Shown here one piece after another: positions 37,318-54,459 of a stretch of DNA of 64,000 nucleotides. The stretch covers positions 1 through 64,000 of the forward strand of contig NJBH01000013.1 of NCBI GenBank assembly GCA_005223125.1, given 5' to 3'. The notes under the pieces were generated by a model. That model was not told the DNA's origin. It did not search any database and saw only the letters and a list, made by a program, of their open reading frames with translations. This DNA is from Promethearchaeota archaeon Loki_b32 (lineage in GTDB: Archaea > Asgardarchaeota > Lokiarchaeia > Sigyniarchaeales > SOKP01). Numbering within the stretch: the first letter of the stretch is position 1; each line of letters starts with the position of its first letter. The translations under genes were made by a program, and so were the position numbers.

Positions 37318-37611
37318 ATGGACTTCTTTCTTAGCAACTTAAAAGAAACACTTGAAGCGATAAATAAGTTAATAGATAATAATGTAACTATTGTAAACGC
37401 TAAAAGAATTAGAAGATGTAATCATATTAAATCTTCAAATCGCTCAAAGATCAATTTCATTTGGAGATCTCTAAGATACCTTGAAGATGAAGGAATATTA
37501 ACATTAAACGGGATAACTAACCCTAGGACTTATAAGATAATAACAAATGAAAAAATTGATGTTGATAAAGTACTTTCTCAAATTGAGAAAAACAAGAAAA
37601 ATAAGTCTTAG
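37318..37611 (+). CDS. Small basic winged-helix-like protein
   Basis: FIWRSLRYLEDEGIL...PRTYKI. Confidence 0.65.
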   Translation: MDFFLSNLKETLEAINKLIDNNVTIVNAKRIRRCNHIKSSNRSKINFIWRSLRYLEDEGILTLNGITNPRTYKIITNEKIDVDKVLSQIEKNKKNKS

Positions 37612-40340
37612 ATTAAATCTAACTCTATTAATAACTCATTTAATTTGTTTTTTGTTTCCTTATCTTTCGGATTGTTAATCAACCGTTTTTGATAAAAAAT
37701 TATATTGGGATATTTCAGCTCTAATTTATTAAATAGCTTTATCCATCTGTTAAAGTTATTGAGTAATTCGTTTACTTCAGGGTCTTCTTCTAAAGACATA
37801 ATTTCTTCTTTCTCTTCTTTTGAAAGGCTAGTTTTATATTTTTTTACACTAATGCCTTGATCATTTAACAACTTCTTATTAGTTCTTCTGATAAATCCTT
37901 CCAAACCGCTTCTCCAATGAACATACTTCTCATTAATTTTATCTATAGTCTCTTGAATAATTTTTATCTCTTGCGGATAAATTGTTTCTTGTTGCTTAGA
38001 TAATATCTTCTTTATTTTTTGAAATTCTGTTTCAAACTTCTGAGTGTAATTGTTAACCATTTTCTCAAATTCAAATAACACAGTATTATAATCTTTAGCA
38101 AATATTACATCATCACTAGAAAAAGTTAATGTTTCTTCTTCAAATGAACCTTTTAATCTCCTTTTTTGTATTAAATCCTCAAAAATTTCTCTTAATAAAC
38201 CAATCTCAGTTTGATTTAATTCCTTGCCATAAAATAAATCATAGAAAGAAAATAGAAAACTACTTTCCAACATCTGGTTCCTAATTCCGCTTTCTGTATA
38301 AAAGAGAACTTCTCCTGCATTTTGATGAAAAATACCCTTTACTTTACCGTCAGCTATTAAATCATGAATTAGATCTTCTATTAAACTTGAAGTGATATCA
38401 TATGTTCCTAAAGAGATATAATCATTAGATTTAGATTTGTCAATTAGCATAAATTTAATATCATTCTTTGCATCTTCTATTTTTTGCGGGCTAAAAATTA
38501 GTAAATCTGCTTTTTTAAAATAAATAAGGCCTAATTCATCAATAAATTTCAAAAAAATGTCTAGTTCCATCCCAGTTTTTTCAAGATATTCACTAATCTT
38601 TAGTTGATCTTTTTGTTTTATTTCTTCTGCAATTAACTGTAAATTTTCATCGATTTTTGATAAAATATGATTTCTATCAATATTAAGTTGCTTGGAGATC
38701 TCATTAATTTGTTTTAATCTTTCGGTTTCATCTGTAATTGAACTTATTTTATCAATTTTATCTTTTAAATACTTTGAGTAATAGAATATATTTTTTTGAT
38801 TATTCCAAATTCCGCTCCTATAGTCTACAAATTGGTCAAATACATCTAAGAGTAGAAGTTGTCCTATATTTAATTTATCTGAAATTCTAGATATGTCAAA
38901 ATAACCGACAATTTTAGAGTTTTGGACTTTATTTGTAATTTTTTGTACTCCTAAGTTTGTTAACCACTGTGTACCTTTACGAAACTTAGATAAGTATTCT
39001 CTTGGCATATTTTTCACTAATCTTATAAAATCTTCATCCAATAGAATCTGACGATAAGATTTAAGATCTATAACACTTCCTTTTGCAGCTTCAGAATTAA
39101 GTTGATCTTGAATTTTTTTTAATGAGATGTATGTTTCTTGATCTTTTCGCTTTAAAAAAGTTATTTTCATAGATTTAGAGATACCCTTCATAATTCTATC
39201 AATAAAATTTTGAGGAAGGAAGTTATAACTGGTTAACTCGATAGAACCATTTACTTGTAAATCCTCTATTAATTTTGATTTTATATAGACATAGGGGTAA
39301 AAAAATCCAATATCCGAATAATACCCCTCAATTATTTTTAGATTATTTAGCGTTTTTATAAATAGCTTTAATTCTGAATCATCATCAATAACTTGAGAAA
39401 ATGTATTATAAATTTTCTTATCTGAGATTTTCTTATCTTGTTTAAAAAATGTTTTTAGTTTATCTTTTTCTAATTCATAGATATATATTACATTTTCTTT
39501 GGTTTTTATATAGAAATAAATCTTCTTTTCCTTAAGATTTGATTTAGCAAAGTTCTTTAAGTGCTCTTTGAGATCCACATCTAACTTCTTCCTTATTAGT
39601 GAAAAATTGTGTTTTTTCATCAAAAAAAGGTTTTCTATTAGGGTTATAACATCTTTACTTTCCAAGTTCTCCAATCCAATTTCATTAAGCAATGGAAAAA
39701 ACTTCTTTAAAAGTTCTATTAATCTAATGAAAATTTTAGAGGATTTTTTATCTTCAAATGAGGAAATTAATGATTTTGAAATATCTCTAAAATAAAATAA
39801 ATGATCAAAATCTAAATCAACACAGGAATCAAGGAAATTTAGCAGGGAAATGATATTATCTGTTTTATTTTCTGTTAGAAGACTTTCCAAAATGATTTCT
39901 AAATCAGGATTTAATAAATTTGGATTAATTTTAATTAATTCTTGTAAAAAGTAATGTACATTATTCCTAACATCTTCAGATTTATCTTTAAGAAACTTTA
40001 CAAACTCATGAGAATAGCTTTCAACGTATTTTGAATTTGCAAGCATCGCAAATCCAATGATAATTATTGAATTAATTTTTAACTTTACATCTTCAGATTG
40101 AAGAAAATTCTCAATTTTTTGTATTAATCCTTCAGAAATAAGTTCGATTCTATTTTCTGCCAAAATTGATAAAATATAGGTAATTGGAACATTATATTTT
40201 TTTTCATCCAATAAAAATTTAAATTCATTAATGAGTTTTGAAATTTTATCAATTTTATTTTTACTTAAAAGCTTGTTTAGTTTATCTACTTTTTCAAGAA
40301 TTAAGCTATCTTTAAAATCCTCAAGATTAAGCATATTCAA
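37608..40340 (-). CDS. Large HEAT/ARM plus tandem winged-helix (PCI/UFL1-like) protein
   Basis: N-terminal HEAT motifs (LKDKSEDVRNN); repeated wHTH-like units (DISRISDKLNI, LIHDLIADGKVKG, DLIQKRRLKGSFEEETLTF); C-terminal coiled coil. Confidence 0.65.
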   Translation of the reverse strand: MNMLNLEDFKDSLILEKVDKLNKLLSKNKIDKISKLINEFKFLLDEKKYNVPITYILSILAENRIELISEGLIQKIENFLQSEDVKLKINSIIIIGFAMLANSKYVESYSHEFVKFLKDKSEDVRNNVHYFLQELIKINPNLLNPDLEIILESLLTENKTDNIISLLNFLDSCVDLDFDHLFYFRDISKSLISSFEDKKSSKIFIRLIELLKKFFPLLNEIGLENLESKDVITLIENLFLMKKHNFSLIRKKLDVDLKEHLKNFAKSNLKEKKIYFYIKTKENVIYIYELEKDKLKTFFKQDKKISDKKIYNTFSQVIDDDSELKLFIKTLNNLKIIEGYYSDIGFFYPYVYIKSKLIEDLQVNGSIELTSYNFLPQNFIDRIMKGISKSMKITFLKRKDQETYISLKKIQDQLNSEAAKGSVIDLKSYRQILLDEDFIRLVKNMPREYLSKFRKGTQWLTNLGVQKITNKVQNSKIVGYFDISRISDKLNIGQLLLLDVFDQFVDYRSGIWNNQKNIFYYSKYLKDKIDKISSITDETERLKQINEISKQLNIDRNHILSKIDENLQLIAEEIKQKDQLKISEYLEKTGMELDIFLKFIDELGLIYFKKADLLIFSPQKIEDAKNDIKFMLIDKSKSNDYISLGTYDITSSLIEDLIHDLIADGKVKGIFHQNAGEVLFYTESGIRNQMLESSFLFSFYDLFYGKELNQTEIGLLREIFEDLIQKRRLKGSFEEETLTFSSDDVIFAKDYNTVLFEFEKMVNNYTQKFETEFQKIKKILSKQQETIYPQEIKIIQETIDKINEKYVHWRSGLEGFIRRTNKKLLNDQGISVKKYKTSLSKEEKEEIMSLEEDPEVNELLNNFNRWIKLFNKLELKYPNIIFYQKRLINNPKDKETKNKLNELLIELDLI

Positions 40341-41182: not shown

Positions 41183-41866
41183 CTACGAATCTATTTCATC
41201 TGGTTCTACTGACACGTGAGAAAGTAACCAATCAAGTTGCTTTTCCCTTTTGTTGATATTAAGAACTGTGGGTAAGATCATGACCTCATCGGCTTTACCA
41301 GGCATAATTGTAAATTTACCGGCCCTTAACATGAAGAACTCAAAAACATCAGGAATTTCTTTTTTGAATCGTAAGCTTTTTACTGGGAATCGTTCAGCCG
41401 AGCTAAATATACCCTTTTTATGAATAATTTCGTTCCTTTCAATTTTGTAGTATTCGAATCTCGTGCTAATAATGACAATTCCGAGGATAAAAAGTAATAT
41501 TACCGTCATAACCATATAGAATTGCCATGTTAAAGTTAAATCTGTTTCCAATCCAGTAAGAGATAACGAGAAACGTGGTAAAACCATGAAAACAAGAATA
41601 AAAACGAGAACAACAATAGCTAAAATTAGTACAAAAAACATAGTTAAGGAGAAATCAAAAGCAGTTACGAATATATTTACAAAAAACACTATAAACCACA
41701 CATAACCTAACACAGTATATAGATCAGAATCAGGAACAAGATTAGTAAACGCTTGAATCAACCATAAAACAAAACTCGTGATGAGCAAGGGCCAAAAGAA
41801 AATCACTTTTGGATAAGATCTTATGAAGATCTCAGTAGGGTGTTTCGCAGGTTTTTTATCAGACAT
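41183..41866 (-). CDS. Membrane protein with C-terminal PH-like domain (paralog 1)
   Basis: Four TM helices, then YKIERNEIIHKKGIFS..ERFP...EIPD.FE...RAG. Confidence 0.75.
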   Translation of the reverse strand: MSDKKPAKHPTEIFIRSYPKVIFFWPLLITSFVLWLIQAFTNLVPDSDLYTVLGYVWFIVFFVNIFVTAFDFSLTMFFVLILAIVVLVFILVFMVLPRFSLSLTGLETDLTLTWQFYMVMTVILLFILGIVIISTRFEYYKIERNEIIHKKGIFSSAERFPVKSLRFKKEIPDVFEFFMLRAGKFTIMPGKADEVMILPTVLNINKREKQLDWLLSHVSVEPDEIDS

Positions 41867-42081: not shown

Positions 42082-42759
42082 TTAGCTTTCCATTATAACA
42101 TGCAAACTACTTAAGAGAAAATCGATACGTTCTACTTTTTTATTCACGTTAAGAACAGTATTTAAATGTACCACGGTCCCTTTAGCTAATATTAGAGTTA
42201 AAGATCCTGCCCTGAACATTAAATACTCAAATAAATCGGGAATCTCTTTTTTAATACGTAAACCTCTTACTGGAAATCGCTCAATCTGTGTAGAAAACAT
42301 TCCTTTTTTATGAATAACTTCGTTTCTCTCGATGCGATAATAATCAAATCTTGAAGTAAGAACAACCAAACCTAAGATTAAACCTAAAATTATTGTCATT
42401 ATCAAATAGAATTCAGCAGGTAATCCAAGGTTTATATTTTTACCAATAATTTCTGCCTCTTCTAAAGTGGGAAATAATCCAAGAAATATTAGAAGTAAAA
42501 CGACAATAAGAGTTCCTAAAATAATAATTAGGAATTTAGTAGAAGGGAAATCTAAGGCTGATACAAAAAAATTTGAGAAAAATATAATCAACCAAATTAC
42601 TCCTAACCATGGATTTAGTTCTGGTAAAAATACCTGAATTATCCAAAAAATTATCGAGATTGCGAATAAAGGTGTAAAAAATATCCCTTTTGGAAAAGAT
42701 CTTAATACAATATCATCCTTTTCTAAGTAAGTGTTCTTACTTTCTTCTTGTTCTCCCAT
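42082..42759 (-). CDS. Membrane protein with C-terminal PH-like domain (paralog 2)
   Basis: Same motifs as 41183-41866; ATG at 42759 (MGEQEES) preferred. Confidence 0.75.
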   Translation of the reverse strand: MGEQEESKNTYLEKDDIVLRSFPKGIFFTPLFAISIIFWIIQVFLPELNPWLGVIWLIIFFSNFFVSALDFPSTKFLIIILGTLIVVLLLIFLGLFPTLEEAEIIGKNINLGLPAEFYLIMTIILGLILGLVVLTSRFDYYRIERNEVIHKKGMFSTQIERFPVRGLRIKKEIPDLFEYLMFRAGSLTLILAKGTVVHLNTVLNVNKKVERIDFLLSSLHVIMES

Positions 42760-42901
42760 AATAATCAGAAGTTTAAATTTATATTCAATATTTAATAGAT
42801 TTCTCAAAGTTTTATATAATTCTCAAACTAAAAAGGATTACTATTAAAACATAATAAAGTAAGGAAGAAATTTTTCTTCTAATACTAATTTTTTAGAACT
42901 A

Positions 42902-44661: not shown

Positions 44662-44764
44662 AAATTTAATTAAAAGTAATAAATTTATAAAGTTTACAAA
44701 AAAATATTAATTTTAGATTATTAATAAGAAAAACAATATTAAAAAACTAAATTATTGATAGAAA

Positions 44765-46288
44765 ATGGCACTGCCTTTACCTGGAACACCAATTATAATT
44801 GATATTGGCTCAGCATATGTGAAGATTGGATTTGCCGGAGAACCAGGACCTAGATTTGTGTTTCCTTGTATAACAGGAACAGAAAAATATAAATCTGTGA
44901 TGGTTGACATAAGCGCTAGAAGTATTTACGTTGGAAACGACGTATCTCGCATGCGTGGAGTTCTTAAAATTAAACATCCTCTAAATCGTGGAGAAATCAT
45001 TGATTGGGACAGTTATTATGAGATCTTAAACTATATATTTTATTCATTACTTAGAATTGAAAATCTTTCACTTTATCCAGTATTCTATTGCGAACCTCCT
45101 TTTATGCATAGAGATACTAAAGAATTTATTGCCAGAGTTTTTTTTGAAACTCATCACGTCCGAAGTCTAGTAATGATGTCAACACCTTTACTTTCCCTAT
45201 TTAGTGTTGGATTGACATCAGGATTGGTAATTGAAAGCGGAGATGGCTTGTCATGGATTGTACCAATAATTAACGGTCAAATAGTTCACCATGCAGTCCA
45301 GAAAATTCCAATTGCAGGAATAGATGTTAATCAGAATTTAAAAGGTCTTTTAATGAGAGAAGGAGCAAGTATTTCTTCTAGTGCTGCGGATGAGATTATC
45401 CAAGATATTAAAGAAAAGAATTGTTATTTTGTATTGGATCCAAATAAACCACCAAGTACAGGAGAAATATTTAGTTTTCCAATGCCAGATGGATCAACCA
45501 TTAGTGTTCCAACTTACATTCTCTATCAAGCTCCAGAAGTATTATTTAATCCTGGCATGTTAGGTTATGGAAACGTTATGAATCTACCTCAAGCAGTACT
45601 TACTTGTTTGAGAGCCATTGATAATCACTATTGGCATGATCTTTTATCACATATTGTATTTTCGGGAGGGAATCTTTCATATAGTGGCTTTAAAGAACGT
45701 TTCGAATTTGAATTAGACCAGATTCTTCCTCAATTAGGTTCAATCCCTAAACCAGTCGCCCCTCTTTCTGCAGTTAAAAGTGAATTAATCAAGCTTCAAT
45801 CTGTTGAAATATCAAAGAAAAAAGAGGATACTTGCCCTCATTGTGGGACTAATGTTAATCTTGGTGATGGGAAAAAATTATGTCCCTCATGTGGGGGTGT
45901 ACTTGTTTTACCGGAGATAAAAATTGGAGCACTAGGCCAAAGCAGTCAAAGTAAACAAATTAAGGTAAAATGTCCACATTGTAAAAAGAAGGTCGCCGAT
46001 ACAGATTCACTTTTTTGTCCGTATTGTGGAAAACCCATAGAATCTTTAGAAGCAGCTGCTCTACCCAAAGCAGTAATAGAAAAATCACCCGCTCAAGAAT
46101 TTTCTGAATTCATGGAATCTGCTAGTAATGTTCTCAAATTTTTTATTCCTGACAATCTTCAATTTACTATTTTTAATGGAGCTGCCATTTTAGGGAGTTT
46201 GCCTAGCTTTCAGCAATTATTTATAACATCTGAACAATTTCAAACAAACAAGGATCTATTATACAGAGACATTAGTGAGATTCTTTAA
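44765..46288 (+). CDS. Actin-family protein with inserted double zinc ribbon
   Basis: IDIGSAYVKIGFAGE..PRFVFP, ESGDG, IKEKNCY, MPDG, APEVLFNP, FSGG, GAAILGSL.SFQQ; four CxxC pairs between 45833 and 46027. Confidence 0.93.
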   Translation: MALPLPGTPIIIDIGSAYVKIGFAGEPGPRFVFPCITGTEKYKSVMVDISARSIYVGNDVSRMRGVLKIKHPLNRGEIIDWDSYYEILNYIFYSLLRIENLSLYPVFYCEPPFMHRDTKEFIARVFFETHHVRSLVMMSTPLLSLFSVGLTSGLVIESGDGLSWIVPIINGQIVHHAVQKIPIAGIDVNQNLKGLLMREGASISSSAADEIIQDIKEKNCYFVLDPNKPPSTGEIFSFPMPDGSTISVPTYILYQAPEVLFNPGMLGYGNVMNLPQAVLTCLRAIDNHYWHDLLSHIVFSGGNLSYSGFKERFEFELDQILPQLGSIPKPVAPLSAVKSELIKLQSVEISKKKEDTCPHCGTNVNLGDGKKLCPSCGGVLVLPEIKIGALGQSSQSKQIKVKCPHCKKKVADTDSLFCPYCGKPIESLEAAALPKAVIEKSPAQEFSEFMESASNVLKFFIPDNLQFTIFNGAAILGSLPSFQQLFITSEQFQTNKDLLYRDISEIL

Positions 46289-46443: not shown

Positions 46444-47541
46444 TTGAAGTACAGATATCGGAATTTAATTGTTGTAGTATTTTTGTTGTTAATAACAATA
46501 AATGCAATTCCGAGTGCGTTAGGAAAAAATAGACGGGCTTATTTAACTAGTTTTATATTAAATAATGAAATTATAGGGAACGGTTTTTCCAATGCTATTT
46601 ATAGCGACGATACCGTTTCTTTTGAAGCAACAGCTTATGCATTAGAAATTTTAGATGATTATGGAATTAATCCGCATGAAATTGAAGCTCTTCAAAATAA
46701 TCTAGAAAATAATGTAGACGAGATGTTTAATAATGATGAAGTAGTTCTATACGATTTATTTTTTTTAATGAAATCATTAAACATTTTACAGCATGAAGAT
46801 ATAGATTTAGAAAATAGAATTTATAAATATTTAAATGATACTGAACAGATAGGAGGTGGGTTCTCTTTCAAAAACTCCACGAGTTCAGCAAATTTAGCTT
46901 CTACATATTATGTTATTCAACTTTATTTATTGATTGATGAGCCAATTAATAATCTTACAGCTCATAAAAATTGGATTCTTTCATGCAATAATTCTGATGG
47001 GGGGTACGGAGGAAGTCAAGGTCTTTCCTCAACTTTAACCGATACTTTTTTTGTTGTTTCGCTTTTAGATGAATTATGGGGAATTGACGCTCTAGTTGAT
47101 ATGAACAAGACATTACATTATCTTAAATCATTTTATGTTGATGATTCAGCAGATCTTAATAGTTTTGGAGGATATTTACCTGATGAAATTGCACAATATG
47201 CATTATTAAGTAGTACTTTTTTTTGTGTTAAATCAATTTCACTAATTGATCCAGATCTTAGCGAATTAAATAGTGCTTCCACAATGGTTTGGGTATTAGC
47301 GCGCCAATATTTCGAAGATGGAGGATTTGCAGAGAACTCTGAAGGATATGAACAAAAAACATCTTCTGTCATCTCATCATATTATGGATTCGAAACTTTA
47401 AGAGTATTTAATGCCCTATCAAGTTTAGCAGGAGAAATTTGGATGGTGGAATTTAATTTTTGGATATTAGGGATAGTCTTAATGTCTATAGGAATTATTA
47501 TTGCTTTAATAGTATTTTTATGGCGAAAAAGAAGAATATAA
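46444..47541 (+). CDS. Secreted, C-terminally anchored prenyltransferase/squalene-cyclase-repeat (alpha/alpha barrel) protein
   Basis: Signal-like N-terminus; repeated DGG(F/Y) motifs followed by ST(Y/F); C-terminal TM helix plus WRKRRI. Confidence 0.75.
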   Translation: MKYRYRNLIVVVFLLLITINAIPSALGKNRRAYLTSFILNNEIIGNGFSNAIYSDDTVSFEATAYALEILDDYGINPHEIEALQNNLENNVDEMFNNDEVVLYDLFFLMKSLNILQHEDIDLENRIYKYLNDTEQIGGGFSFKNSTSSANLASTYYVIQLYLLIDEPINNLTAHKNWILSCNNSDGGYGGSQGLSSTLTDTFFVVSLLDELWGIDALVDMNKTLHYLKSFYVDDSADLNSFGGYLPDEIAQYALLSSTFFCVKSISLIDPDLSELNSASTMVWVLARQYFEDGGFAENSEGYEQKTSSVISSYYGFETLRVFNALSSLAGEIWMVEFNFWILGIVLMSIGIIIALIVFLWRKRRI

Positions 47542-48725: not shown

Positions 48726-49181
48726 ATGGCAATTTTAGAAGTTGGAATTAATCTTGGCATGAGAAACCTAGTTGAGATAAAATATTATATATCTTCGGAT
48801 AATGTTTTAGATCCAAACTTACGTGCTGGATTTCTAACTGCACTTGAAAGCTTTACAAGCGAAGTTTTTGGTGATGATATAAACGTTATCAGTCTTGCGA
48901 GTTTTAAATTAGTTTGTTATTGTGAGATGATAACATTACCAGATGATGATGTGAATAATAAACAACCATTACTTTCATATGCTATTATAGAAAAATCTAC
49001 AGACGCCTCAGTAGTGAAAGAACAATTGAATGAAATAATCTCTTATTTTCTCAATCGATACCCCTTGAATGATATTTTTTCAAAAAAACCTAAATATTTT
49101 AAACAGTTTGAAAATCGAATAGATGAATTATTAGGAGATTTAAAATTAAAAACTGAGGATAGATTTCGTTCTTTATTTTAA
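48726..49181 (+). CDS. Longin-like domain protein
   Basis: DPNLRAGFLTALESFTSEVFGDDI..ISL, LSYAI, FKQF..RIDEL. Confidence 0.7.
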   Translation: MAILEVGINLGMRNLVEIKYYISSDNVLDPNLRAGFLTALESFTSEVFGDDINVISLASFKLVCYCEMITLPDDDVNNKQPLLSYAIIEKSTDASVVKEQLNEIISYFLNRYPLNDIFSKKPKYFKQFENRIDELLGDLKLKTEDRFRSLF

Positions 49182-53502: not shown

Positions 53503-54459
53503 ATGTCGACGAGGATAAAAACACCCAATCTTGATGAGATATGGTTAAGATGGAAGCAAAAATCTGCAAGAACTGATAAAAAAAAGATGGAAAAACAATT
53601 TGGAACGAAAGGAGCAGTTTTCTCTTTAGATGCGATAAGTGCTGCAGAATATGTTAAAGATACAATGAAAGAAGCAGCTATCTATTTCGCTGTTAAAAGA
53701 TCTCTTGGTCCTGCACCTACAGGGAAAGAGGAAAATTTAGTTACAGTACCCAGGGTAGGTAGAGAACAATATTATTCTTTTAAAGGAGCAGGAAAAATTG
53801 ATAAAGAAAACTGGAAGGGTGATGAAAAAGTACCTCACTTTGAGTCAATTAAAGCTGTTCCTTGTAAAAATTGTAGAGGGAAAGGATATATTGAAGATAA
53901 ATGTAAAACATGTAAAGGAACTGGTAAAATTGAGGAAACCTTTACAGTGTTAGTAGGAGAAGAGCAAAATAAAGAAAAGAAACCCTTTTCCTATTCCTGT
54001 GCAGTTTGTTATGGGACTGGAAATAGATCAGAACCATGTAAAGAGTGCGGAGGTCATAAAAATATGTATAAATATGACATTCTTCCTGTACCCTTTAAAA
54101 CTGTAGTAACAGGAATCCCAATTTTACACAGTAGTGCTCAAACAAAATATGAAAAGGAAATCGGAGATGACCTTCATAAAATGATTGAAGATGTCGAAGG
54201 AATAAAGTTCAGCGAGTTTAAAGAATTAGAATCGAAAGCAGAAGCTTCATTAGGATATATGAACAAAAATATTAGTAAAACGATTGGAGCCGCGAGAAAC
54301 GATTACAAAAAACATGAAAAAGATAAAGAAGCTCAAATTACCTCGCAAATTTACTTGTTTCCGATGATCCAAATGATGGCGACTACTAAACGAGGAATGA
54401 AGTTTGAAATCTACAGTCTCGGCTCGGGCAATAAGTTCATGGTATTTTCTAATTTCTAA
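53503..54459 (+). CDS. DnaJ-type CxxCxGxG zinc-finger protein without J domain (SSUH2-like)
   Basis: VPH...CKNCRGKG, CKTCKGTG, CAVCYGTG, CKECGG; no HPD motif. Confidence 0.75.
   Translation: MSTRIKTPNLDEIWLRWKQKSARTDKKKMEKQFGTKGAVFSLDAISAAEYVKDTMKEAAIYFAVKRSLGPAPTGKEENLVTVPRVGREQYYSFKGAGKIDKENWKGDEKVPHFESIKAVPCKNCRGKGYIEDKCKTCKGTGKIEETFTVLVGEEQNKEKKPFSYSCAVCYGTGNRSEPCKECGGHKNMYKYDILPVPFKTVVTGIPILHSSAQTKYEKEIGDDLHKMIEDVEGIKFSEFKELESKAEASLGYMNKNISKTIGAARNDYKKHEKDKEAQITSQIYLFPMIQMMATTKRGMKFEIYSLGSGNKFMVFSNF

What the first reader, a model, noticed from the sequence alone, without database searches (positions are those of the whole stretch)
44765..46288. Actin with a ~130-aa double zinc-ribbon insertion and substituted hydrolysis residues
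Seen: the protein is collinear with eukaryotic actin, including a full D-loop. Between ELDQILP and LKFFIPD (about actin 320-327) there is an insertion with CPHC, CPSC, CPHC and CPYC. By manual alignment Q137 is T (MSTPLLSLF), H161 is W (GDGLSWIVPI), D154 is E and H73 is R. Established: Q137 and H161 support ATP hydrolysis in actin, and several eukaryotic Arps carry insertions in this region. Inference: a slow- or non-hydrolysing Arp-like adaptor, nucleator or cap whose zinc ribbons recruit partners, distinct from filament-forming Lokiactin.
Basis: partly seen in the sequence, partly recalled or inferred. Interest (0 to 1): 0.8.

Follow-up and report, generated by a model that had tools for sequence, protein, structure and literature searches.

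The report
Zinc-ribbon actin relative of Lokiarchaea
This gene encodes a real, order-wide actin relative of Loki-type Asgard archaea that carries one or two small zinc-binding modules in a surface loop, has lost actin's main ATP-splitting residue and keeps only one of its two filament-joining faces, so it most likely plugs or anchors the growing end of the archaeal actin filament instead of forming filaments itself.

Summary
Observation confirmed: the 507-aa ORF is an actin fold with a 129-residue insert at actin 322-327, holding two C4 zinc ribbons (all 8 Cys invariant in 121 homologues). An independent 98%-identical contig spans it.

It is one of four actins in this Asgard genome. Orthologues occur in 145 of 153 genomes of the order and none were found outside it. 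The Ca. Lokiarchaeum ossiferum orthologue is the published, transcribed, uncharacterised ARP UYP44711.1.

Corrections: ribbon number is one or two; Trp161 is not clade-wide; loss of Gln137 is (31/31). Most nucleotide-pocket residues are kept.

Added here: the clade keeps the pointed-end contact residues (R39, M44, R62, I64, D244), loses the barbed-end ones (Y169, D288, R290) and always has a short amphipathic C-terminal tail. A second Arp paralogue shows the mirror pattern (permutation p 0.004-0.012).

Best reading (0.45, inferred): a non-hydrolysing barbed-end cap or anchor for Lokiactin. No binding was tested. I found no paper describing the insert. This scan has reported the same family from other genomes.

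The parts
44765..46288 (+). Actin-related protein with zinc-ribbon insert (ZnR-Arp), 507 aa
44801..44824 (+). Phosphate loop 1 (D13, G15, K20 = actin D11, G13, K18; invariant in 31/31)
44882..44926 (+). Full-length D-loop (residues 40-54); K41 and M46 = actin R39 and M44, kept
44987..44989 (+). R75, replaces sensor-loop H73 (R in 31/31)
45182..45184 (+). T140, replaces catalytic Q137 (S19, T10, A2 in the clade; never Q)
45233..45256 (+). Phosphate loop 2 with E157 (D154), G159, D160, G161 and W164 (H161; variable across the clade)
45278..45280 (+). Q172, replaces W-loop Y169 (polar or charged in the clade; aromatic in 0/31)
45632..45634 (+). W290, replaces barbed-face R290 (Arg in 2/31)
45746..46132 (+). 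Insert, residues 328-456, in the subdomain-3 loop at actin 322-327; 97-210 aa long across the clade
45833..45892 (+). Zinc ribbon 1 (C357, C360, C373, C376); present in all 31 orthologues, with conserved flanking hydrophobic motifs
45971..46027 (+). Zinc ribbon 2 (C403, C406, C418, C421); absent in 7 of 31 orthologues
46271..46285 (+). Amphipathic C-terminal tail beyond actin F375 (4-9 extra residues in 31/31; 1/26 Lokiactins have any)
46444..47541 (+). Conserved downstream gene: N-terminal hydrophobic signal, prenyltransferase-like alpha/alpha toroid, C-terminal TM helix, about 6-residue basic tail; possible partner, link unproven

Best explanation
[quoted passage not shown] SHOWN (sequence or model): actin fold; nucleotide-pocket residues kept; Q137 lost clade-wide; pointed-face contact residues kept and barbed-face ones lost; a ribbon insert and a C-terminal tail, both on the barbed side. 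INFERRED: it binds nucleotide structurally; it docks with its D-loop and subdomain 4 onto the barbed end of a Lokiactin filament; it cannot accept a further subunit or self-polymerise, so it stops growth and stays bound. The tethered ribbon(s) then point away from the filament end and bind a partner, which would anchor or localise the capped end, perhaps at the membrane.
For: Long-pitch contacts taken from Chou and Pollard (bioRxiv 10.1101/309534). In four of the five named pairs the clade keeps the pointed partner and loses or loosens the barbed one: R39 as K 31/31 vs D286 19/31; R62 31/31 vs D288 variable; D244 31/31 vs R290 2/31; I64 as V 31/31 vs Y169 aromatic 0/31. Mean retention is 0.77 pointed vs 0.59 barbed, background 0.56. 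Lokiactin is 0.99 on both faces. The C20-type paralogue is the mirror image, 0.52 vs 0.87. Permutation p of this interaction is 0.004 with the paper's list and 0.012 with a longer list from memory. D11, G13, K18, G156, G158, D184, E214, G301 and G302 are invariant and K213 is 30/31, while Q137 is S/T/A in 31/31; Q137A abolishes hydrolysis in Arp2/3 and ParM (PMC3587832). All 31 have a C-terminal extension; in Arp3 such a tail wedges into the barbed groove (PMC4947185). Order-wide retention beside Lokiactin; the orthologue's transcript was measured and Lokiactin was severalfold higher (PMC9834061), as expected of an accessory factor.
Against: No interaction was shown. The pointed/barbed contrast within this clade alone is modest (p 0.025-0.08), and neither sites nor sequences are independent. 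Pointed-face E205 is lost, and P38 and T202 are kept in only about a third. The M44 pocket (Y143 as F, T148, I165) is largely kept. Arp2 has an insert after helix 11 and Val at 169, yet still accepts a daughter filament (PMC9894260), so neither feature proves a block. Q137 mutants can still polymerise. The insert's linkers are unconfident in the model, so steric clash was not demonstrated.
Confidence: 0.45

Rival explanations
1. Subunit of a closed, fixed-size Arp complex: its intact pointed face binds the intact barbed face of the C20-type paralogue, directly as a long-pitch heterodimer or across a few Lokiactin subunits as a dynactin-like minifilament. The ribbons are docking sites for other subunits.
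For: The two paralogues have complementary faces. Both lack Q137 (C20-type has D/G/E). Both are found through families f1 and f3 of the order. Arp inserts anchor partner subunits (PMC9894260; PMC4947185).
Against: No C20-type orthologue was found in the f4 genomes searched, which do have ZnR-Arp (63-88% complete). The genes are not linked. The kept residues match Lokiactin as well as they match C20.
Confidence: 0.22
2. A regulated nucleator or co-polymerising subunit: the C-terminal tail is an Arp3-like switch that leaves the barbed groove on activation, and the insert swings aside like Arp2's, so Lokiactin can grow from it or it can sit inside filaments.
For: The hydrophobic M44 pocket is largely kept. 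The model's last residue aligns to residue 416 of Arp3 in 1k8k. Arp2 tolerates an insert at this site and Val169. The linkers look flexible.
Against: Y169, D288 and R290 are lost together and are variable, not replaced by a new conserved set in the W-loop. Arp2 and Arp3 keep Q137. Lateral-contact positions are no better kept than background (0.30 vs 0.38 identity). The tail's hydrophobic residues are not in exact register with Arp3's.
Confidence: 0.15
3. A monomeric nucleotide-binding scaffold outside the filament system, like nuclear Arp4 or Arp8. It works with the neighbouring membrane protein or with nucleic acid or ubiquitin-like partners through the ribbons.
For: Inserts explain non-polymerisation of Arp8 (abstract of PMC3510490). 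The membrane-protein gene is adjacent in 18 of 20 orthologue loci and has nearly the same range. Similar ribbons occur in Asgard ESCRT-linked proteins (PMC10936438) and mediate binding to FtsZ in haloarchaeal CdpC.
Against: It does not explain why specifically the filament-contact residues R39, M44, R62, I64 and D244 are near-invariant. The neighbour exposes only about 6 basic residues on the inferred cytoplasmic side. Background synteny is high: an HTH gene is upstream in 13 of 20 loci. The neighbour is unlinked in G279 and was not found in G276. The insert's net charge runs from -29 to +7, which argues against conserved nucleic-acid binding.
Confidence: 0.15

Closest known systems
Ca. Lokiarchaeum ossiferum ARP UYP44711.1 (Rodrigues-Oliveira et al., PMC9834061)
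   Same: Orthologue: both published RT-qPCR primers match inside the gene in a 6,035,313-bp single-contig genome; same clade at 100/100; same neighbours; insert at the same site; Q137 lost.
   Different: 38% identical; one ribbon instead of two; keeps His161. The paper gives only a tree position and transcript level, and has no occurrence of 'zinc'.
Lokiactin / eukaryotic actin (Pfam PF00022; HC1 actin 9wc4)
   Same: Fold (Z 47, rmsd 1.8 A), nucleotide pocket, D-loop and pointed face; 38% identity to the genome's own Lokiactin.
   Different: Lacks H73, Q137, H161, R183, Y169, D288, R290; has a 129-aa insert and a C-terminal tail; separate clade.
Eukaryotic Arp2 and Arp3
   Same: Arp2 has a partner-binding insert after helix 11; Arp3 has a C-terminal tail in the barbed groove.
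   Different: They keep Q137 and offer a working barbed face; this protein keeps the opposite face. Arp2's insert is 11 residues, with no ribbon. No evidence of orthology.
Dynactin Arp11 and capping protein (own knowledge)
   Same: A terminal, non-polymerising subunit that ends an actin-like filament.
   Different: Arp11 caps the pointed end and has a reduced subdomain 2, the reverse polarity. Barbed-end capping protein is not an actin fold. I know no eukaryotic Arp that caps a barbed end.
Nuclear Arp4 / Arp8
   Same: Inserts in the actin fold, nucleotide bound with little hydrolysis, non-polymerising scaffolds (and own knowledge).
   Different: Lower structural score (Z 33-39 vs 45-47 for actin); inserts lie elsewhere and have no C4 ribbon; chromatin-remodeller partners were not looked for here.
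Zn_ribbon_3 / DZR modules (PF13248, PF12773); haloarchaeal CdpC
   Same: C-x2-C-x10..12-C-x2-C ribbons on flexible linkers; in CdpC they link FtsZ1 to the membrane (bioRxiv 10.64898/2026.07.16.738847).
   Different: Here they are inserted inside an actin loop; no homology to CdpC was tested; no solved relative by sequence.

Membership tests
Actin family (PF00022) | Profile match above cut-off and four-subdomain actin fold | tested here: met
   214 bits vs cut-off 27; Z 47, rmsd 1.8 A over 360 residues
Actin family (PF00022) | Nucleotide-pocket residues D11, G13, K18, G156, G158, E214, G301, G302 | tested here: met
   Invariant in 31/31; S14, D157, R183 and K336 vary; binding itself untested
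Lokiactin | Catalytic and sensor residues Q137, H161, H73 | tested here: not met
   T140, W164, R75; Lokiactins keep them in 26-27 of 27 rows
Lokiactin | Groups with the conserved, pan-Asgard ~380-aa clade | tested here: not met
   Separate 100/100 clade on a 0.63 stem; the genome's Lokiactin is another gene; found in one order only
Lokiactin | Forms double-stranded filaments | not testable with these tools
   Barbed-face contacts are lost, which predicts no
Asgard ARP group of UYP44711.1 | Orthology with the L. ossiferum gene | tested here: met
   Primers, tree, synteny
Eukaryotic Arp2/Arp3 | Q137 and H161 retained | tested here: not met
Eukaryotic Arp2/Arp3 | Barbed face able to template a daughter filament | tested here: inconclusive
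   Y169, D288, R290 lost, but the M44 pocket is largely kept and Arp2 itself has V169
Eukaryotic Arp2/Arp3 | Phylogenetic grouping with Arp2 or Arp3; ARPC partner subunits | not tested
   No Arp2 or Arp3 sequence was at hand; the tree held actin-like and Arp1-like eukaryotic rows only and its backbone is unresolved
Dynactin Arp11-type pointed-end cap | Reduced subdomain 2 with intact barbed face | tested here: not met
   Full D-loop, degraded barbed face
Nuclear Arps (Arp4/Arp8) | HSA-helix partner in a chromatin remodeller | not tested
   Not searched
C4 zinc ribbon (PF13248/PF12773) | Two CxxC pairs 10-12 residues apart, conserved | tested here: met
   44.6 bits vs cut-off 27; invariant Cys; spacing
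C4 zinc ribbon (PF13248/PF12773) | Binds zinc | not testable with these tools
   Metal identity needs ICP-MS or a structure

The most novel reading that the evidence does not exclude
Promethearchaeales-type Asgard archaea evolved, independently of eukaryotes, a pair of polarity-specialised Arps: this ribbon-bearing one caps and tethers the barbed end of Lokiactin filaments, and the C20-type one templates or caps the pointed end. Together they would control filament length and anchoring in the protrusions, and this would be the first Arp known to me that works as a barbed-end cap.
Probability: 0.25. Interest if true: 0.85.

Novelty: new variant of a known kind. Interest (0 to 1): 0.62.

Why it matters
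Lokiactin filaments fill the protrusions of cultured Asgard archaea and are linked to their crawling (PMC9834061, PMC13716822), but I found no functional study of the three accessory Arps in these genomes. This analysis gives one of them a specific, testable role, in a group with a cultured member (L. ossiferum). If it holds, archaea reached end-specific control of actin filaments by duplicating actin and degrading one face of each copy. That logic parallels Arp2/3 and dynactin, and bears on how a regulated cytoskeleton arose. Because the clade is confined to one Asgard order, it is more likely a parallel invention than an ancestor of a eukaryotic Arp, which limits its reach.

Tried and rejected

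RNA: metatranscriptome contigs cover only 44738-45013, 45389-45441 and bits of neighbours; too thin to show level or co-transcription with the membrane-protein gene. The sigma-70 promoter scan was at chance level and does not suit archaea.

First AlphaFold run with near-identical homologues left subdomain 2 unresolved; replaced by the diverse alignment. No coordinates are returned, so docking onto F-actin for clashes could not be done.

Relatives of the insert alone: nothing usable in the ESM Atlas or among solved structures; this shows neither absence nor novelty.

Tree: the clade's sister group is unresolved; a weak grouping with the C20-type Arp in the fast trees vanished in the careful one.

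Literature: nine full-text searches and 14 papers gave no description of the insert. Subscription reviews on Asgard actins and the Muller 2005 Arp survey were not held.

Rejected: assembly chimera or pseudogene; recent foreign insert; Trp161 and two ribbons as defining traits; nucleic-acid binding through a basic insert. A WH2-like reading of the helix before ribbon 1 was considered but has low pLDDT and is not conserved.

Full report
OBSERVATION. The ORF at 44765-46288 (+) encodes 507 aa. Pfam finds Actin over 9-323 (E 2.8e-63) and two zinc-ribbon stretches (Zn_ribbon_3 E 8.5e-12). Against solved structures the match is split in two, 6-327 and 458-495, with Asgard HC1 actin (9wc4) best. The insert is residues 328-456, in the subdomain-3 loop at actin 322-327. 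All eight cysteines are invariant in 121 close homologues of 62-100% identity. A model built on a diverse alignment has a confident core, two moderately confident ribbons and unconfident linkers, and superposes on F-actin at Z 47, rmsd 1.8 A. An independent 6070-bp contig, about 98% identical, spans the gene with no listed indel inside it.

IDENTITY AND RANGE. The genome holds four actins: a Lokiactin on C38, a 373-aa Arp on C20, this gene, and a 398-aa Arp on C56. This matches the four described for Ca. L. ossiferum (PMC9834061). Across 400 genomes of the phylum, orthologue-level hits occur in 127/134, 1/1, 13/14 (three as contig-end pieces) and 4/4 genomes of the four families of the order, 145/153 in all. 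Two well-assembled genomes (100% and 92% complete) gave no orthologue. Outside the order the best hits stay at Lokiactin level, and none of the actins fetched from 18 such genomes has the insert; a very divergent orthologue elsewhere is not excluded. The orthologue in a 6,035,313-bp single-contig genome contains both RT-qPCR primers published for UYP44711.1. So the family has a cultured member, appears in a published tree as an Asgard ARP, and was measured as a transcript below Lokiactin's level. I recall the 4,324,194-bp genome (L007) as P. syntrophicum MK-D1, but did not test that. With the insert excluded, the orthologues form one clade (100/100); its sister is unresolved.

WHAT IS FIXED AND WHAT IS NOT. 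Ribbon 1 is in all 31 diverse orthologues; ribbon 2 is absent in 7, including the deepest-branching family and L. ossiferum. The insert is 97-210 aa with net charge from -29 to +7. One ribbon first, then duplication and one later loss, is a simple reading, but the tree is unrooted. A long-branch duplicate in G195 has lost the whole insert (L023). Q137 is S, T or A in 31/31 and H73 is R in 31/31. Position 161 is variable (W11, T6, H4, F4, S3). D11, G13, K18, G156, G158, D184, E214, G301 and G302 are invariant; S14, D157, R183 and K336 vary. Q137A abolishes hydrolysis in Arp2/3 and ParM without stopping assembly (PMC3587832). I infer that nucleotide is bound but not, or slowly, hydrolysed.

FACE ASYMMETRY (main addition here). 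In F-actin, subdomains 2 and 4 of one subunit contact the barbed face of the next through R39-D286, R62-D288, D244-R290, Y169 with P38/I64, and M44 in a pocket (bioRxiv 10.1101/309534). The clade keeps R39 (as K), M44, R62, I64 (as V) and D244 almost without exception. It loses Y169 (aromatic in 0/31), D288 and R290, and loosens E167 and D286. Retention is 0.77 pointed and 0.59 barbed against a background of 0.56. Lokiactin is 0.99 on both faces, so the lists are not biased in themselves. The C20-type Arp (28 orthologues) is the mirror: M44, K61 and R62 lost; Y143, Y169, D286, D288 and R290 kept (0.52 vs 0.87). The interaction has permutation p 0.004 with the paper's list and 0.012 with a longer list from memory. 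Within this clade alone the contrast is weaker (p 0.025-0.08), and sites and sequences are not independent. All 31 orthologues also extend 4-9 residues past actin F375, with an amphipathic pattern in 30. Arp3 uses a C-terminal tail to fill its barbed groove (PMC4947185) and the model's end aligns to Arp3 residue 416; the register is imperfect, so this is a hint only.

NEIGHBOURS. The downstream gene encodes a signal-bearing, single-pass membrane protein with a prenyltransferase-like toroid. It is adjacent in 18 of 20 orthologue loci and has nearly the same range. Its inferred cytoplasmic tail is only about six basic residues. An HTH gene is upstream in 13 of 20 loci, so background synteny is high, and the link is broken in two genomes. 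I treat it as a candidate partner, not evidence.

MECHANISM. A subunit with a working pointed face and a degraded, decorated barbed face can add to a filament's barbed end but should not be extended. The best reading is therefore a stable barbed-end cap or anchor for Lokiactin, whose tethered ribbons bind a partner (0.45). Archaeal ribbons do link a cytoskeletal polymer to the membrane in CdpC. Rivals are a closed complex with the complementary C20-type Arp (0.22), a switchable nucleator or co-polymer (0.15; Arp2 has an insert at this site and Val169 yet templates growth) and a filament-independent scaffold (0.15).

NOVELTY. It belongs to the known Asgard ARPs and fails the Lokiactin test. In the literature I could search, neither the ribbon insert, nor the tail, nor the polarity is described; some reviews were not held. 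Earlier notes of this scan report the same family from other genomes, with the same neighbour and orthologue; I had those results before looking. Verdict: real, conserved, a new variant of a known kind, interest 0.62.

Noticed in passing
L002:1489-2610 (G000 C20:15215-16336 +): The 373-aa Arp paralogue keeps the barbed face and has lost M44, K61, R62, Q137 and H161 (R in 28/28). A proline-rich gene with a WH2-like C-terminal helix lies about 1 kb upstream (C20:13552-14253); similar pieces are seen in L098 and L109, but not within the 1.5-kb flanks of the f3 loci.
   Followed up: partly
L088:1495-3585 + and L091:1468-3732 + (G398): Two apparently circularly permuted actins: they begin near actin residue 70-80, the phosphate-loop-1/D-loop segment follows the normal C-terminus, and they end in a further domain with hydrophobic helices (696 and 754 aa).
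   Followed up: no
L023:4973-6130 - (G195): A second copy of the ZnR-Arp clade that lacks the whole insert, has a long branch (0.97) and lies in a different neighbourhood; a natural delta-insert control.
   Followed up: partly
L052:199-2631 -, L054:67-2628 -, L056:442-2154 -: The sister orders of the class have divergent Arps with C-terminal extensions of 200-480 aa; two are low-complexity and end in a similar charged helix.
   Followed up: no
L072:1249-2619 + (G062): An actin homologue from another class with an N-terminal extension holding one CxxC; it does not group with this clade.
   Followed up: partly
L004:517-2673 (G000 C56): The fourth actin (398 aa, 25% identical to Lokiactin) directly follows a Lys-rich protein with a predicted long helical C-terminal part.
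   Followed up: no
window 37608-40340 -: 910-aa protein with a weak HEAT-like N-terminal hit (Cnd1, E 4.5e-4) and no confident family.
   Followed up: no
window 41183-41866 - and 42082-42807 -: Two tandem, similar membrane proteins; the first has no Pfam family, and a relative is syntenic in L020-L022.
   Followed up: no
window 48726-49181 + and 53503-54459 +: A 151-aa protein without Pfam hit, longin-like by eye, directly before a GTPase gene; and a 318-aa protein with a DnaJ-type cysteine-rich domain (E 1e-5) whose relatives lie near the Arp in three f3 loci.
   Followed up: no
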